Shown: in pieces, positions 463 to 59,216 of the stretch
How the letters are laid out: every line of letters begins with the position of its first letter
Numbering within the stretch: position 1 is the stretch's first letter
IMG/VR virus record: IMGVR_UViG_3300028888_000071
Location: 22,638 to 86,637 of that record
Reading direction: 5' to 3' (one strand)
DNA from: a virus
Taxonomy: Duplodnaviria; Heunggongvirae; Uroviricota; Caudoviricetes
Length of the DNA: 64,000 nucleotides
The notes under the pieces: model-generated
The model's database searches: none
Seen by the model: the letters and a program-made list of their open reading frames with translations, nothing else
Told to the model about the DNA's origin: nothing
Program-made: the position numbers and the translations under genes

Positions 463-1713
463 ATGAACATTTATATTTCAAGAGGAATGAAATCTTATTT
501 TGCCTCCGTAGACAACAAATATCGTATCTACGGTGGCAAAGACATCATAGGAGAAACGATTTTGCGATTGACCAGACTATATCCACAACATACATTCTAT
601 TACAATGGCGCAAATGATTTAGATGATTTGGACACTTGCCCGAAAAATGTTGTGAATCTAGACAAGAAGATAAAAGCTATCGCAAGAAAGAATGTAGATG
701 ACTATGATAGAGAACTTGTCGAATGCACATTCAGATATATTGAAGCTAATGGTTTGGAATTTGACATGTTCTTGATGTTCTGCTTCATAACAGAAACACC
801 TGTGGAATACTGGAAATTCAACACCAGCAAAGGCACGCCAATGAAGCCAAGAGAAATGGACAAGAGCAGCGCATACAAGTTCGCGCCATTGAAATACACT
901 GACGGGCCAATATATTATTACACCGATGACACGAGCTGCTTCAAATGGCCACGTGATGTCAGAATACCCGCAAGAATGTTCAGCCAATATCGTGGGAGCA
1001 TAACACTAAAACAGTTCAATGAAAACACGGTGCTTACTACTGACTATGAGCTTGTTGAAAAAGAAGTAGAATACCAGCCAATAGAGCTGTTCTTTTTGAG
1101 AAACAAAAACCGCGTTGACTGGAGAAACATGAACAAGACTGGAACATTTGAAATCATATGCAACCAGTCACCAGACAACAGCCTTGAACGATTCTACTAC
1201 ATAAAGAAATGGATTCTTGACTACAGGCCTGAGCAGACAATCTATGGCAAATGGACAAAGAAGAATCTTGACGCGATGAACGAAATTCACGCAAATGTCC
1301 AAGAGGTGCCAATGATAGCAATGGAAGACAAGATGTTCAACACAAAATACACTTTCGTCATTCCAGCAAACACTGCTTATACTGGATTCGTCACACAAAA
1401 AGTGTATTCTATGCTGTATTATGGCATAGTGCCGTTTTGGTGCAAGAATGACTATGACACCACAAATATATACAGCAAGTTTCCTGACTACATAAAAGTA
1501 GAGAATCCTGAAGAACTTTACAACAAGATAAACGAGTTAGAAGCAGACAATGATCTCTATCACAAGCTTCTTGAAGAACTGTATGGCTGTTTTGAAGAAT
1601 ACATGTTTTCTGATGATTTGATTTATAATATGTTTGACAGCATACTTAACCCTTGCAATGAAGCACATGCGGTTGTTGAAGAACACATAGCAGAACATAA
1701 AAAACTATTTTGA
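463..1713 (+). CDS. hypothetical protein (416 aa)
   Basis: Long ORF. ATGA overlap with upstream stop and TGATGA overlap with downstream start (operon). No motif I can name. Confidence 0.5.
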   Translation: MNIYISRGMKSYFASVDNKYRIYGGKDIIGETILRLTRLYPQHTFYYNGANDLDDLDTCPKNVVNLDKKIKAIARKNVDDYDRELVECTFRYIEANGLEFDMFLMFCFITETPVEYWKFNTSKGTPMKPREMDKSSAYKFAPLKYTDGPIYYYTDDTSCFKWPRDVRIPARMFSQYRGSITLKQFNENTVLTTDYELVEKEVEYQPIELFFLRNKNRVDWRNMNKTGTFEIICNQSPDNSLERFYYIKKWILDYRPEQTIYGKWTKKNLDAMNEIHANVQEVPMIAMEDKMFNTKYTFVIPANTAYTGFVTQKVYSMLYYGIVPFWCKNDYDTTNIYSKFPDYIKVENPEELYNKINELEADNDLYHKLLEELYGCFEEYMFSDDLIYNMFDSILNPCNEAHAVVEEHIAEHKKLF

Positions 1714-3002
1714 TGAAAAAAATAAAATGGGGCTGCATACAGCCATTGACTGGTGGAATGTACATTGGCGCGATGAATGCAATCGGACACAAAGCGGATT
1801 GGGTTCTTAGCTATCCTGGACTTGCAGCCACAAAATTTGATGATAATGGAAACATAAAAGAAGCAGGAAATGAATATAGTCTGCTTAAATGGTGTGAGAA
1901 AAGAGACGAAATTCCAGCATACCAGTTGTTTGACAGAAAACCGTTTGACAAAGTGGACATCAACAATGTCAACATCATTGACGATCCAGTATGGACAAAA
2001 GAAAAAGTAGATTTTTCTAACACTGACATTGTTGTGTCTGTCCCTGTCTGTTCGGGTTTGTCGCAAGCGACTATCGCCAAAGATGAAACAAAATCTGAAC
2101 GGAACAACAACATGATATTCAACGCGGAATTTGCTTTGAGTGTCATAAAGCCAAAAGTGTACATATTCGAGAATGCTCCAACATTATTCAGCAACGCCGG
2201 CATTCCAGTAAGAGACATGATAAACAAAATCGCGTTTGAACATGACTATTCAGTTGTCTATTACAAGACTAACACTAAGTTCCACGACAACTGCCAGAAC
2301 CGTCCGCGCACATTTGTGATGATGATAAAGAACATTGATGGCAAGTCAGGATGTCCGAGCATGAACGGAGAGCACGTGATGACGAATGTTGTAGAATATC
2401 TTTCAAGAATACCGGAAAACGCGTCACAGCAAGAACCAATTGAAATGGAGCCAATAAACAACCTCATAATGAAGTTCATATATGACATGTATGGTGATGA
2501 TTTCAGAAACGACGAAGACACTTGGTCCATAGACTGCATCATCAAAAGTGGAGACAAGTTTGACAAGTGGCTTGATGAGGTTGACTATGACAGTGAAACA
2601 AAAGAAAAGCTTAGACACAACATAGACCATATAAGAAAGAAAATTGCGATGAACAAGAACTTCTATTCCATCGCTCCCGGGTGGCTTACAGAAAAGTCTG
2701 AACTTGCTCCGGTATGCATGTTCAAAACTATATTGACCACATTGCACTACAAAGAGAACAGGATTCTGAATGCAAGAGAATGGCTTCATCTTATGGGACA
2801 TCCACATGACTATGAACTGTATGGCGACTACATGACAAACTACCCTAAAATCGGGCAGAATGTTCCGGCAAGAACTGCGCAGTTCATTGTCAGTGAAGCA
2901 GTGCGCATTGTTGAAAACTGGGAGACTTTGTCGAGAATGAATCCGAGTGTGTTCATGTTCGACAACACAAAATTTGACGAACATATAAAAAGTCTTTTTT
3001 GA
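1710..3002 (+). CDS. diverged DNA cytosine-C5 methyltransferase-like protein (copy 1)
   Basis: Ordered C5-MTase-like motifs: TGGMYIG (I-like), PVCSGLSQA (IV, PCQGFSQAG-like but Q->S), IFENAPTL (VI ENV-like), QNRPRTFV (VIII), GQNVPARTAQFIV (X, GNSV-like). Paralog of 57909-59216. Confidence 0.5.
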   Translation: MMKKIKWGCIQPLTGGMYIGAMNAIGHKADWVLSYPGLAATKFDDNGNIKEAGNEYSLLKWCEKRDEIPAYQLFDRKPFDKVDINNVNIIDDPVWTKEKVDFSNTDIVVSVPVCSGLSQATIAKDETKSERNNNMIFNAEFALSVIKPKVYIFENAPTLFSNAGIPVRDMINKIAFEHDYSVVYYKTNTKFHDNCQNRPRTFVMMIKNIDGKSGCPSMNGEHVMTNVVEYLSRIPENASQQEPIEMEPINNLIMKFIYDMYGDDFRNDEDTWSIDCIIKSGDKFDKWLDEVDYDSETKEKLRHNIDHIRKKIAMNKNFYSIAPGWLTEKSELAPVCMFKTILTTLHYKENRILNAREWLHLMGHPHDYELYGDYMTNYPKIGQNVPARTAQFIVSEAVRIVENWETLSRMNPSVFMFDNTKFDEHIKSLF

Positions 3003-3016
3003 TAAATAAAAACAAA

Positions 3017-57835: not shown

Positions 57836-57859
57836 GAGCGGATCCTTGTGGATCCGCTC
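57836..57859 (-). terminator. rho-independent terminator for the leftward gene 57909-59216
   Basis: gagcggatcc-ttgt-ggatccgctc, preceded on the + strand by aaaaa (a U-run on the minus transcript). Confidence 0.55.
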
Positions 57860-57908
57860 AACCAATTATGAACCTATACGAAAGCTTTTGAACAAAAGCC
57901 AAACCAAA

Positions 57909-59216
57909 TCAGAACAGTCTGTTCACTTCATGCTGAGTGAAATTTGAAACTGTCTGTCTTATATTGTCATAAAAATAAACCGTTCCTTTCTGTCTTGCTG
58001 AATTTTTCCAGTTCTCTAACATGTTGACTGCTTGCCCGACAATGAATTCTGCAGTCTTCACTGGAACATTCTGCCCGATTTTGCCAAGATTGCATCTGCC
58101 GCCAAACCATTCGAAGTCTCTTGGCATTCCCATCAGTTCAAGCATTTCTCTAACTGTGCAGAATCTTGATTTGTTTGGATGAAGTATAGACGGTATAGTC
58201 TTGTACATGACAGCTGGGAAATAATCATCTTTGCATTGTTTCACATCAGCGCCGAACCAGCCAGAATTCTGAGCCAGTTTGTTTTTTATATGATTTATGT
58301 ATTTCAATACATTTTCTTTTTCGTCATCGGTAGAATTCTCGTGTTTAGGAATATATTCAGCAAACTCATCTAACAAATTGTTAGAAATCACATAAGACAT
58401 TGCTGAATCTTTAGTCCATACAGAAAACATGTTGTCGCCATATTTGTCTTTCAAGAAATCCAGTATCAGATAATTGTATATGTCTGAAATGATGAGCTCA
58501 TCATTTGGCAAACCGCTTGGTATATTGGCAAAATAGTCTTTTGGAAGAATGTGGTCATCGACGAAATCCATTTTCGGGACATAATTCTCTCCCTTTATTT
58601 TCTGCACAAACAAGACGAATGTTCTCTGACGTCTCTGGCAGTTATGATGTCTTGCTGTGTCTGTCTTGTAATAAATGATGCCATAGTCATTTTCTTCAGC
58701 AAGTCTCTCGAACTCTTCTCTCAAATAGTCTCCGCGTTGGCCCATCAATGTCGGGGCGTTCTCGAAAATATAAATCTTTGGCTTTATTTTTCTCAATGCG
58801 AGATTAGCAAGGTAAAGCATGTTGTAGTTGCGTGCCATCAAAGCTTCTTTTGTGCCAATTGTCGATGTAGACAAGCCAGAACAGACGGGGACAGCAACAA
58901 CTAAATCAAGTCCATCGTATTTTGGAGTCTTCAATTTCTCACCAAGATAAATGTCAGGTTCAAGATTGTCCAGATCCGGATCAAACATTACTCTATCCAT
59001 CTGGTAATATGGAGGCATTCGGTCTTTCTTCTTGAGATAAGTGTTGAGGTATGCTTCATTCGCGACAACTGTTATCTCGCCATCTTTATTGCATTTTATG
59101 TCATCTAATCCTTTGTAACTAAGTATCCATTCTGCAGGATGTCCGATTGCAGCTTCTGCGCCAAGATACATTCCACCAGTCAGTGGCTGTATGCAAGCCC
59201 ATTTTATTTTCTTCAT
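57909..59216 (-). CDS. diverged DNA cytosine-C5 methyltransferase-like protein (copy 2)
   Basis: MKKIKWACIQPLTGGMYLGA, VAVPVCSGLSTST, IYIFENAPTL, QRRQRTFVLF, GQNVPVKTAEFIV. The same motif order as 1710-3002. Confidence 0.5.
   Translation of the reverse strand: MKKIKWACIQPLTGGMYLGAEAAIGHPAEWILSYKGLDDIKCNKDGEITVVANEAYLNTYLKKKDRMPPYYQMDRVMFDPDLDNLEPDIYLGEKLKTPKYDGLDLVVAVPVCSGLSTSTIGTKEALMARNYNMLYLANLALRKIKPKIYIFENAPTLMGQRGDYLREEFERLAEENDYGIIYYKTDTARHHNCQRRQRTFVLFVQKIKGENYVPKMDFVDDHILPKDYFANIPSGLPNDELIISDIYNYLILDFLKDKYGDNMFSVWTKDSAMSYVISNNLLDEFAEYIPKHENSTDDEKENVLKYINHIKNKLAQNSGWFGADVKQCKDDYFPAVMYKTIPSILHPNKSRFCTVREMLELMGMPRDFEWFGGRCNLGKIGQNVPVKTAEFIVGQAVNMLENWKNSARQKGTVYFYDNIRQTVSNFTQHEVNRLF

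What the first reader, a model, noticed from the sequence alone, without database searches (positions are those of the whole stretch)
1710..59216. Two diverged C5-methyltransferase-like paralogs with a PVCSG catalytic loop instead of PCQ
ORFs 1710-3002 (+) and 57909-59216 (-) share all C5-methyltransferase landmarks in order (I, IV, VI, VIII, X) and are about 40% identical to each other by eye. Both replace the canonical PCQ with (V)CSG while keeping the Cys and the ENx motif. A conserved Gln loss at the catalytic loop in both copies suggests altered chemistry or substrate (for example transfer of something other than methyl, or action on a nucleotide rather than DNA). They sit at opposite ends of the window, one next to a kinase-like gene. 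Alongside dCMP deaminase, NUDIX and dNMP nucleotidase genes, the phage may carry non-canonical cytosine modification.
Basis: partly seen in the sequence, partly recalled or inferred. Interest (0 to 1): 0.55.

Follow-up and report, generated by a model that had tools for sequence, protein, structure and literature searches.

The report
Two divergent phage cytosine-C5 DNA methyltransferase paralogs
A huge phage carries two old copies of a cytosine-C5 DNA methyltransferase from a large, uncharacterised, so far phage- and metagenome-only branch with an unusual active-site signature; they most likely just methylate phage DNA, but one is wired into a DNA-sugar-decoration gene island, which is not yet explained.

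The parts
1713..3002 (+). Paralog A, 429 aa, C5-cytosine DNA methyltransferase fold. Motif positions: motif I-like QPLTGG at nt 1740-1757; GNEY at 1866-1877; catalytic loop PVCSGLS at 2043-2063 (Cys113); ENAP at 2169-2180; QNRPR at 2295-2309; variable helical insert at about residues 206-335; motif IX REWLHLMGHP at 2775-2804; motif X GQNVP at 2853-2867.
57909..59216 (-). Paralog B, 435 aa, same family. Motif positions: QPLTGG at nt 59172-59189; PVCSGLS at 58869-58889; ENAP at 58752-58763; QRRQR at 58623-58637; REMLELMGMP at 58122-58151; GQNVP at 58062-58076.
   Evidence: ORF. PF00145 55.7 bits. 40% identity to A. Core 48-50% identical to A against 22% in the insert. The best relative held is the L034 methyltransferase at 52% identity.
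463..1713 (+). GT-B glycosyltransferase (416 aa) whose stop overlaps the start of paralog A (TGATG). It is structurally closest to T4 DNA beta-glucosyltransferase. It is one of three paralogs in this phage; the other two lie upstream of the window.
60..461 (+). C-terminal end of a 526-aa nucleotidyltransferase + kinase (APH/EcKL-like) fusion that belongs to the sugar-activation part of the island. The gene begins upstream of the window.
   Evidence: L001:7169-8749 hits NTP_transferase at 3.2e-05, EcKL at 8e-04 and APH at 0.071. Gene map.
59276..59294 (-). G+C-rich hairpin GGAGGTGCAACGCACCTCC followed by a T run, between the major capsid gene (59322-61094) and paralog B. It looks like a terminator, so paralog B probably has its own transcription start.
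   Evidence: Sequence read; coordinates.
57836..57859 (-). Terminator-like hairpin (10 bp stem, 7 GC pairs, T tail) just downstream of paralog B.

Best explanation
ORF A and ORF B are two functional, SAM-dependent, sequence-specific DNA cytosine-C5 methyltransferases. They belong to a deep and so far uncharacterised clade found in phage and metagenome sequence. The proposed mechanism is the classical one. The target cytosine is flipped out. Cys113 (Cys112 in B) attacks C6. Glu153 of ENAP protonates N3. Arg197 and Arg199 hold O2. The methyl group of AdoMet is transferred to C5, and beta-elimination follows. The two copies are old paralogs. Their catalytic cores are conserved, while the roughly 130-residue helical insert between motifs VIII and IX has diverged. 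They therefore probably recognise different DNA motifs. The purpose is self-modification of phage DNA against host restriction. ORF A is co-expressed with a DNA-glycosylation island. ORF B is a stand-alone unit bounded by terminator-like hairpins, next to the capsid gene.

What is shown: homology, fold, conserved catalytic residues, clade-wide motif pattern, gene arrangement. What is inferred: SAM use, DNA as substrate, different specificities, the anti-restriction role.
For: - PF00145 is passed by both proteins and phrog_116 'DNA methyltransferase' is hit.
- The AF2 model is confident (pLDDT 92.6).
- There is a full-length structural match to the Bacillus phage G C5-methyltransferase (TM 0.72).
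- Profile against PDB gives MET1/DNMT1 at 7e-12 with motifs I-VIII and IX-X aligned. hhalign to HhaI/HaeIII/Dcm gives probability 99%.
- In 136 clade representatives, C113, E153, R197 and R199 are 136/136 and Q195 is 133/136. The glycine pair of motif I is 130-132/136. N53 is 125/136 and the acid at position 54 is 117/136. D/N/E74 is 112/136.
- The core is 48-50% identical between A and B, the insert 22%. This is the pattern expected for paralogs with different target recognition.
- Other phages carry 2-3 copies, including three in tandem in L006.
- Family members sit in nucleotide-metabolism and DNA-modification neighbourhoods: DNA ligase, dUTPase-like, dNMP-kinase-like and TS homologs.
- Gln after the Cys is dispensable in proven enzymes: DNMT3A has PCN.
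Against: - No member of the clade has been tested. All relatives looked up are unnamed metagenomic proteins or carry only an automatic name.
- Several cofactor-side positions depart from the canon at once. Motif I reads Q-P-L-T-G-G instead of F-x-G-x-G-G, with an invariant Leu where HhaI has Gly20. The residue at the end of strand beta2 is Ser. Pro-Cys-Gln is Val-Cys-Ser. The HhaI Asn304 position is Gln.
- Pfam does not align motifs I and II, and the NCBIfam dcm cut-off is not reached.
- The insert that should recognise DNA is helical in the model, unlike the mostly beta small domain of M.HhaI (my own knowledge).
- Relatives place these genes inside what looks like a T4-type hydroxymethyl-dC toolkit. 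If cytosine were fully replaced at C5, a C5-methyltransferase would have no substrate.
Confidence: 0.6

Rival explanations
1. The methyltransferases are the first step of a post-replicative hypermodification pathway of the kind shown by Burke et al. 2021 (PMC8256090). The C5-methyltransferase writes 5mC at a motif. A TET/JBP-like 5-methylpyrimidine dioxygenase makes 5hmC. The adjacent T4 beta-GT-like and TAGT glycosyltransferases then add sugars. The dioxygenase would lie elsewhere in the genome, which is more than 400 kb in the closest relative, or be too divergent to detect.
For: - ORF A's start overlaps the stop of a beta-glucosyltransferase-like gene.
- In L006 a TAGT gene ('TET-associated glycosyltransferase', PF20691) overlaps the first of three methyltransferase genes. 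L005 also has TAGT in the island.
- Sugar-nucleotide genes and a thioredoxin lie upstream. Redoxins accompany MT/TET clusters in PMC8256090.
Against: - No Tet_JBP or any 2OG-oxygenase family was found by Pfam among the window's 74 ORFs.
- None appears in the precomputed Pfam of L001, L005 or L006, or among the conserved neighbour clusters tested.
- The published pathway has the methyltransferase and TET within five genes of each other.
- Relatives carry a different source of a C5 hydroxymethyl handle in the same islands, namely dCMP-type TS homologs.
Confidence: 0.15
2. The clade has changed chemistry. It keeps the covalent Cys-C6 activation of cytosine. However, it either transfers something other than methyl from a modified donor, or it acts on 5-hydroxymethylcytosine DNA made by the thymidylate-synthase route. 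An example of the latter would be substitution at the 5-CH2OH group through an exocyclic methylene intermediate.
For: - The departures cluster on the cofactor and transferred-group side (motif I, residue 33, the residue after the Cys, the HhaI-Asn304 position). The cytosine-binding residues are invariant.
- The Asn304 position is exactly where Arg or Lys switches the donor to carboxy-SAM.
- Family members recur inside predicted hydroxymethyl-dC and glycosylation islands, where an ordinary C5-methyltransferase seems to lack a substrate.
- TIM5-like cyanophages combine a clade member, a dCMP-type ThyA homolog plus ThyX, and annotated DNA glucosyltransferases.
Against: - There is no positive evidence for another donor. 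The window has no CmoA-like or other cofactor-making gene by Pfam.
- Gln is not a charged residue that could bind a carboxylate.
- The N-[D/E] and D/N positions typical of adenosine binding are conserved.
- DNMT3 enzymes also lack the Gln after the Cys and still methylate.
- Multiple paralogs with divergent inserts fit sequence-specific methylation better.
- Co-location may only reflect clustering of DNA-modification genes and shared ancestry among related huge phages.
- Cytosine replacement in these phages is itself unproven.
Confidence: 0.12
3. They are not DNA enzymes, or they are inactive. They could be Dnmt2-like tRNA cytosine methyltransferases, RNA m5C methyltransferases of the RsmB/NSUN type (whose motif IV reads PCSG), or catalytically dead DNA binders.
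For: - The string 'PVCSG' resembles the RsmB/NSUN 'PCSG' (my own knowledge).
- Burke et al. found several phage C5-methyltransferase clades inactive in E. coli.
Against: - Bacterial DNA methyltransferases outscore Dnmt2.
- All catalytic residues are invariant across 136 diverged sequences, and the family has multiplied. This argues for selection on catalysis.
- Motifs VIII, IX and X are intact, unlike the inactive clades described in PMC8256090.
Confidence: 0.05

Closest known systems
Bacterial and phage orphan DNA cytosine-C5 methyltransferases (Pfam PF00145; M.HhaI, M.HaeIII, E. coli Dcm, prophage enzyme 3g7u)
   Different: Val-Cys-Ser replaces Pro-Cys-Gln. Motif X is G-Q-N-V-P instead of G-N-(S/A)-V. 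Motif I is x-P-L-x-G-G instead of F-x-G-x-G-G. There is a beta-hairpin insertion before the N-E-Y of motif II. The insert between motifs VIII and IX is helical. Sequence identity is only 14-16%. The TIGR00675 cut-off is not reached. No partner restriction enzyme is nearby.
Phage C5-MT / 5mYOX (TET) / glycosyltransferase hypermodification clusters (Burke et al. 2021, PMC8256090; Pyle et al. 2023, bioRxiv 10.1101/2023.12.21.572611)
   Same: A phage C5-methyltransferase gene sits in one operon-like block with DNA-type glycosyltransferases (T4 beta-GT-like here, TAGT in relatives), sugar-nucleotide enzymes, an APH-type kinase and a redoxin.
   Different: No TET/JBP dioxygenase was detected next to the methyltransferase in any of about 35 loci. 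Relatives instead carry dCMP-type thymidylate-synthase homologs, a dNMP-kinase-like gene and a dUTPase-like gene, which is the pre-replicative T4-type route. Whether these proteins belong to the published methyltransferase clades was not tested, because no sequences were at hand.
CmoX, DNA cytosine C5-carboxymethyltransferase of Synechococcus phage S-B43 (PDB 8YF3; PMC12783734)
   Different: CmoX is defined by SPPC plus Arg350 at the Asn304 position and by an accompanying CmoA. Here the loop is VPVC and the position is Gln (135/136 in the clade). No CmoA-like gene was found in the window.
DNMT3A/3B
   Same: Proven DNA 5mC methyltransferases whose catalytic loop also lacks the Gln: S-P-C-N-D-L-S against P-V-C-S-G-L-S here, including the shared L-S.
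Clade members in cultured phages: the 'DNA methylase' of TIM5-like cyanophages (S-TIM5, S-TIM54) and Bacillus phage G G3MA42
   Same: The S-TIM54 protein is 29% identical over 94% of ORF A and shares xPLxGG, ENAP, QxRxR and QNVP. The phage G protein matches the whole model, insert included (TM 0.72).
   Different: S-TIM54 keeps Pro-Cys (PPCAGLS) and lacks the long hairpin. Neither protein has been characterised as far as the library shows.

Membership tests
DNA cytosine-C5 methyltransferase (PF00145 / Dcm-HhaI type) | Passes the curated Pfam PF00145 threshold | tested here: met
   68.7 and 55.7 bits against a gathering score of 22. Only profile positions 44-321 are aligned.
DNA cytosine-C5 methyltransferase (PF00145 / Dcm-HhaI type) | Passes the NCBIfam TIGR00675 (dcm) cut-off | tested here: not met
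   56.8 and 32.4 bits against a cut-off of 100.65.
DNA cytosine-C5 methyltransferase (PF00145 / Dcm-HhaI type) | Two-domain C5-methyltransferase fold | tested here: met
   [not shown]
DNA cytosine-C5 methyltransferase (PF00145 / Dcm-HhaI type) | Catalytic Cys in motif IV | tested here: met
   Cys113 in A and Cys112 in B. It is 136/136 in the clade and aligns with the PC Cys of MET1 and HhaI.
DNA cytosine-C5 methyltransferase (PF00145 / Dcm-HhaI type) | Pro-Cys dipeptide and the following Gln (PCQ) | tested here: not met
   Both proteins have Val-Cys-Ser. In the clade the residue before the Cys is P in 56, V in 44, I in 23. The residue after it is S in 64, A in 63, never Q.
DNA cytosine-C5 methyltransferase (PF00145 / Dcm-HhaI type) | Motif VI Glu (ENV) and motif VIII QxRxR | tested here: met
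   E153-N-A-P with E in 136/136. Q195 is 133/136, and R197 and R199 are 136/136. They align with ENV and QxRxR of HhaI.
DNA cytosine-C5 methyltransferase (PF00145 / Dcm-HhaI type) | Motif X G-N-(S/A)-V with the Asn (HhaI N304) | tested here: not met
   The motif reads G-Q-N-V-P. Gln382 aligns with N304 and is Q in 135/136. An invariant Asn follows one position later.
DNA cytosine-C5 methyltransferase (PF00145 / Dcm-HhaI type) | AdoMet-binding motifs I (FxGxG), II (acid after strand beta2) and III (Asp) | tested here: inconclusive
   Motif I is Q-P-L-T-G-G, with the GG conserved and Leu at the HhaI Gly20 position. A conserved N-[D/E] lies at the start of helix B after a hairpin insertion. D/N/E74 follows strand beta3. 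The alignments disagree by 1-2 residues. Model coordinates could not be inspected.
DNA cytosine-C5 methyltransferase (PF00145 / Dcm-HhaI type) | SAM-dependent formation of 5mC in DNA | not testable with these tools
   This needs expression plus LC-MS or EM-seq.
CmoX DNA cytosine C5-carboxymethyltransferase | SPPC motif | tested here: not met
   SVPVC in A and AVPVC in B. The definition comes from PMC12783734.
CmoX DNA cytosine C5-carboxymethyltransferase | Arg at the HhaI Asn304 position (R350), which binds the carboxymethyl group | tested here: not met
   The position is Gln382.
CmoX DNA cytosine C5-carboxymethyltransferase | [quoted passage not shown] | tested here: not met
   No methyltransferase-fold CmoA-like family or AMP-forming ligase was found by Pfam among the window ORFs. 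The rest of the genome was not seen.
Phage C5-MT / 5mYOX / GT hypermodification cluster | C5-methyltransferase and TET/JBP dioxygenase within about five genes, in parallel orientation | tested here: not met
   No Tet_JBP or 2OG-oxygenase hit in the window, in L001, L005 or L006, or in the conserved neighbour clusters.
Phage C5-MT / 5mYOX / GT hypermodification cluster | DNA-type glycosyltransferase adjacent to the methyltransferase | tested here: met
   [not shown]
RNA m5C methyltransferase (RsmB / NSUN, motif IV 'PCSG') | RsmB/NSUN fold and Pfam family | tested here: not met
   [not shown]
Dnmt2 tRNA methyltransferase | Closest structural and sequence relatives are Dnmt2; Dnmt2-specific target-recognition motif | tested here: inconclusive
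   [not shown]

The most novel reading that the evidence does not exclude
The clade with the signature xPLxGG / P-x-C-[S/A]-G-L-S / ENAP / Q-N-V-P is not a plain 5mC writer. It would be a sequence-specific DNA cytosine-C5 enzyme with altered donor or acceptor specificity that works together with the adjacent DNA glycosyltransferases without a TET step. It could install a non-methyl group at C5, or it could act on 5-hydroxymethylcytosine supplied by the dCMP-type thymidylate-synthase route. This would explain why C5-methyltransferase-like genes persist, in two to three copies, inside hydroxymethyl-dC and glycosylation islands of unrelated phage lineages (rumen-type huge phages, TIM5-like cyanophages).
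Probability: 0.12. Interest if true: 0.85.

Novelty: new variant of a known kind. Interest (0 to 1): 0.42.

Why it matters
If the ordinary reading is right, the result is modest. It defines a large family of phage C5 DNA methyltransferases: 335 clusters at 50% identity at E<=1e-30. The family has a non-canonical active-site signature and a helical recognition insert. It could provide new sequence specificities for methylome tools, and it shows that Pro-Cys-Gln and the motif X Asn are less universal than textbooks state.

The more interesting point is the context. The genes are embedded in predicted DNA-glycosylation and hydroxymethyl-dC islands that lack a TET. One possibility is that these huge phages layer 5mC on top of a second pyrimidine hypermodification, which would bear on how they evade restriction and on how their DNA sequences. 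The other is that the clade does something new at cytosine C5. Carboxymethylation by CmoX was found in the same fold only in 2025, through a change at the same motif X position.

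Tried and rejected
- Di-, tetra- and hexanucleotide statistics of the window, looking for depletion of a methylated motif or CpG-type decay. Only a general mild avoidance of palindromes appeared (CATG, TGCA, ACGT and GATC lowest; CpG odds 0.81). Nothing points to a target site.
- Single-sequence PDB search. Only marginal hits at E about 0.07, so a profile was needed.
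- S-TIM54 homolog against PDB. Uninformative.
- Literature on S-TIM5 and on the 'PCQ motif'. Nothing on this clade.
- PHROGs and Pfam on the unknown neighbours, looking for a hidden dioxygenase (L001 250-aa protein; clusters c5, c15, c16, c17, c47). No informative hits.
- Local HMMs of the TS homolog, TAGT, ribulose-phosphate epimerase and GT2 from relatives against six-frame translations of the window, L001 and L005. No TS, epimerase or GT2 anywhere, and no TAGT in this phage's sequence (window and L001); the only TAGT hit was L005's own copy, a member of the profile.
- RsmB/NSUN-type RNA methyltransferase: rejected on fold.
- CmoX-type carboxymethyltransferase: rejected on its defining residues.
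- Lak phages and LR756500.1, which share the capsid, do not carry this methyltransferase family by tblastn.
- Residue-level placement of motif II could not be settled. HMMER, hhalign global and hhalign local disagree by 1-2 residues and on which side of the hairpin it lies.

Full report
**1. The observation**

ORF A (TTG at 1710, ATG at 1713, ending at 3002, + strand) and ORF B (57909-59216, - strand) are real open reading frames. BLASTP gives 174/437 identities (40%) and E 2e-104 over the full length. Both pass Pfam PF00145 'C-5 cytosine-specific DNA methylase' (68.7 and 55.7 bits, gathering score 22). The alignment begins only at profile position 44-50, so Pfam does not see motifs I and II. 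PHROGs assigns both to phrog_116 'DNA methyltransferase'. NCBIfam TIGR00675 (dcm) is hit below its cut-off.

The database copy of ORF A (P0001, 429 aa) starts at the ATG at 1713. This ATG overlaps the stop of the upstream gene as TGATG.

**2. What kind of phage this is**

The capsid protein (59322-61094) is 44.5% identical to that of the 462-kb uncultured phage LR756500.1. It is about 33% identical to the capsid of the 540-550-kb Lak phages of Prevotella. The exact ORF A protein lies on a 137.5-kb ENA contig. Its 68% relative lies on a 408-kb scaffold. The window is therefore a piece of a huge phage. It holds structural genes, a topoisomerase, dCMP deaminase, NUDIX and NT5C.

**3. The fold**

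**4. The loop is a clade signature**

A search of 5.8 billion proteins found 568 relatives. All 120 listed carry PVC(S/A)GLS. An exhaustive profile search of 1.84 billion cluster representatives found 335 clusters at E<=1e-30 and 718 at E<=1e-10. I aligned 136 full-length representatives, which are at most 50% identical to one another. The counts are:
- Cys113, 136/136.
- The residue before the Cys: Pro 56, Val 44, Ile 23.
- The residue after the Cys: Ser 64, Ala 63, never Gln.
- G115-L116-S117, nearly invariant.
- E153-N-A-P, with E in 136/136.
- Q195 in 133/136, and R197 and R199 in 136/136.
- Q382-N383-V384-P385, with Q in 135/136.
- Motif I reads x-P-L-x-G-G: P 122, L 128, G 132, G 130.
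- S33, 109/136.
- N53, 125/136, followed by D or E in 117/136.
- D, N or E at position 74 in 112/136.

None of the sampled members carries a curated name; the only labels are JGI's automatic 'site-specific DNA-cytosine methylase'. All sampled members are metagenomic. In cultured phages the clade occurs in TIM5-like cyanophages and one Pseudoalteromonas phage. The S-TIM54 protein reads IPLVGG / PPCAGLS / ENAP / QERTR / QNVP.

**5. Mapping onto the canon**

HMMER against plant MET1 and hhalign against an M.HhaI / M.HaeIII / Dcm alignment (probability 97-99%) agree on these equivalences:
- QPLTGG = F18-A-G-L-G-G23 of HhaI. This puts Gln10 at the Phe18 position and the invariant Leu12 at the Gly20 position.
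- V-C-S = P80-C81-Q82.
- ENA = E119-N-V.
- QxRxR = Q161-x-R163-x-R165.
- G-Q-N-V-P = G303-N304-S305-V306-V307, so Gln382 sits at the Asn304 position.

Dcm was taken from NC_000913.3.

Motif II is less certain. The end of strand beta2 carries Ser33-Tyr34. Then comes the hairpin. A conserved N-E-Y lies exactly at the start of helix B, where HhaI has N39-E40-W41. My inference is that the hairpin is an insertion and that N-[D/E] is motif II. The model coordinates could not be inspected, so this remains inference.

**6. What this says about chemistry**

The residues that act on the target cytosine are invariant. These are the Cys nucleophile, the Glu that protonates N3, and the two Args. Plausible ribose-binding and adenine-binding residues are conserved too. 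This is the pattern of an active, SAM-type cytosine-C5 transferase.

DNMT3A and DNMT3B are proven DNA methyltransferases, and they read S-P-C-N-D-L-S at this site.

The departures do cluster on the cofactor side. One of them, the Asn304 position, is where natural CmoX has Arg350. That Arg touches the carboxymethyl group of Cx-SAM. The engineered M.MpeI N374K change at the same position switches the donor (PMC12783734).

CmoX membership fails on every defining feature. The proteins lack SPPC, they have Gln and not Arg, and no CmoA-like gene is found in the window. A Gln is uncharged. Combined with the Gln-to-Ser/Ala change in motif IV, it may simply relocate an amide within the same pocket. That last point is speculation.

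**7. Two paralogs**

Identity between A and B is 48% over residues 1-205 and 50% over residues 336-405. It is 22% over residues 206-335. That region occupies the place of the target-recognition domain. Other phages carry two copies (L015, L035) or three in tandem (L006). ORF B's best relative among the held sequences is not ORF A but the L034 methyltransferase, at 52% identity. The duplication is therefore old, or the copies moved between phages. Several copies with different recognition inserts is what one expects of sequence-specific DNA methyltransferases aimed at several host restriction systems.

**8. Gene context in this phage**

ORF B is a single gene between two terminator-like hairpins (59294-59276 and 57859-57836). 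It lies between the capsid gene and a terminase fragment.

ORF A is the last gene of a co-directional block that starts upstream of the window (L001). In order, the block holds:
- a thioredoxin;
- a 446-aa GT-like gene;
- a nucleotidyltransferase;
- a 457-aa GT-like gene;
- a HAD-like phosphatase;
- a nucleotidyltransferase + kinase fusion, whose C-terminal end is window 60-461;
- a 416-aa GT-like gene, window 463-1713;
- ORF A.

**9. Gene context in relatives**

I examined 32 IMG/VR loci plus three others, with up to 10 kb of flank on each side, and clustered the neighbouring genes. The methyltransferase recurs with:
- the same beta-GT-like family;
- TAGT (PF20691), which overlaps the first methyltransferase gene in L006;
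- a GT2 glycosyltransferase, ribulose-phosphate 3-epimerase, and nucleotidyltransferase-kinase fusions;
- a short thymidylate-synthase homolog (PF00303, 9e-10), which has Asp at the E. coli ThyA Asn177 position and keeps Asp169. This is the dCMP-type signature and not the 5-hydroxy-dCMP synthase signature (criteria from PMC13326640);
- a dNMP/thymidylate-kinase-like gene;
- a dUTPase/dCTP-deaminase-like gene;
- DNA ligase.

Together these look like the T4-type toolkit for hydroxymethyl-dC DNA plus glycosylation. At least 7 of the 32 methyltransferase-bearing contigs also carry the TS homolog. One has it about 45 kb away from the methyltransferase. S-TIM54 has, next to its clade member, a 'ThyA' that also carries Asp at position 177, and it has a separate ThyX. 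TIM5-like phages are annotated with DNA glucosyltransferases.

No Tet_JBP or other 2OG-oxygenase family was found in the window, in the precomputed Pfam of L001, L005 and L006, or among the conserved neighbour clusters. No TS homolog lies in the roughly 72 kb of this phage that I could see.

**10. Interpretation**

The best-supported reading, at about 0.6, is two sequence-specific, SAM-dependent DNA 5mC methyltransferases of a divergent clade known so far only from phage and metagenome sequence.

The first rival, at about 0.15, is the published MT-to-TET-to-GT route with the dioxygenase unseen.

The second rival, at about 0.12, is altered chemistry. It rests on three points:
- the cofactor-side substitutions;
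- the precedent of CmoX;
- an unresolved question: if these phages replace cytosine at C5 before replication, what does a C5-methyltransferase act on?

Ordinary answers to that question exist. Replacement may be partial. The hydroxymethyl-dCMP may be deaminated to feed a thymine-type modification, which would leave cytosine free; a dCMP deaminase is present in the window. DNA-modification genes may simply cluster. None of these could be tested here.

Non-DNA or inactive readings get about 0.05.

**11. Novelty and score**

These proteins would be, and in JGI records already are, annotated automatically as cytosine methylases. The finding is therefore not a new kind of system. It is a distinct variant:
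- a large, untested clade with a changed catalytic-loop and motif X signature;
- an unusual recognition insert;
- a recurring link to DNA-glycosylation and hydroxymethyl-dC islands that lack a TET.

I rate interest at 0.42. The enzymology is probably ordinary, but the context poses a real question that can be tested cheaply.

Noticed in passing
[not shown]
   Followed up: partly
Relatives: L015:12377-13066, L023:3576-4280 and 4264-4854, L027:11383-12066, L031:19632-20351(-), L034:3434-4228 and 4221-4811, L035:5486-6289: Short thymidylate-synthase homologs (about 190-270 aa) in the same islands as the methyltransferases. They have Asp at the ThyA Asn177 position (dCMP-type) and retain Asp169. 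Some occur as tandem pairs in which the second copy lacks the segment between about ThyA residues 60 and 95. The family has at least 548 members in IMG/VR. None was found in the window or in L001.
   Followed up: partly
L006:3373-7381: Three tandem paralogs of the methyltransferase (438, 439 and 436 aa). They lie directly after a TAGT gene whose stop overlaps the first methyltransferase start, on a 12-kb contig.
   Followed up: partly
window 56900-57391 (-) and 20426-22372 (-): The large terminase appears to be in pieces about 35 kb apart. A 163-aa ORF matches only the N-terminal part of TerL profiles (phrog_5989). A 648-aa ORF carries an intein-splicing domain followed by Terminase_6N. This may be a split or intein-interrupted terminase.
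   Followed up: no
window 23396-24034, 24031-24855, 26214-27071 and at least two further ORFs: A family of at least five paralogs with YdcK beta-solenoid / hexapeptide / bactofilin-like repeats, in the tail and baseplate region.
   Followed up: no
window 3620-5767 (+): A 715-aa protein that combines an AAA+ ATPase, a ClpB D2-small domain and a peptidase M41 (FtsH-like) domain. It lies two genes downstream of ORF A.
   Followed up: no
window 44302-45828 (-), 45911-46408 (+), 50347-50895 (+), 6226-6816 (+): A RimK-like ATP-grasp ligase (508 aa) sits divergently next to the dCMP deaminase. A NUDIX hydrolase and an NT5C deoxynucleotidase lie elsewhere in the window. These enzymes manipulate the nucleotide pool and would fit a pre-replicative pyrimidine modification.
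   Followed up: no
window 62696-63613 (+): A fusion of a polynucleotide-kinase-like P-loop domain (AAA_33) and an HD phosphohydrolase domain.
   Followed up: no
window 13124-17200 (+): A 1358-aa ORF with no Pfam hit. It is conserved on a JGI contig together with the topoisomerase gene.
   Followed up: no
L013, L016-L020, L033 (for example L016:11434-12756): In another group of huge-phage contigs the methyltransferase is flanked by an ORF of about 2000 aa and an unknown of about 210 aa upstream, and by an IMPDH/GMP-reductase-like gene (440 aa) downstream.
   Followed up: no
L010:6132-6974 (S-TIM54 'ThyA') and L046:15022-15693 (ThyX): Cyanophage S-TIM54 encodes ThyX and also a ThyA homolog with Asp at the Asn177 position, next to its clade methyltransferase. 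The 'ThyA' annotation is therefore probably wrong, and the enzyme is likely to modify dCMP.
   Followed up: partly
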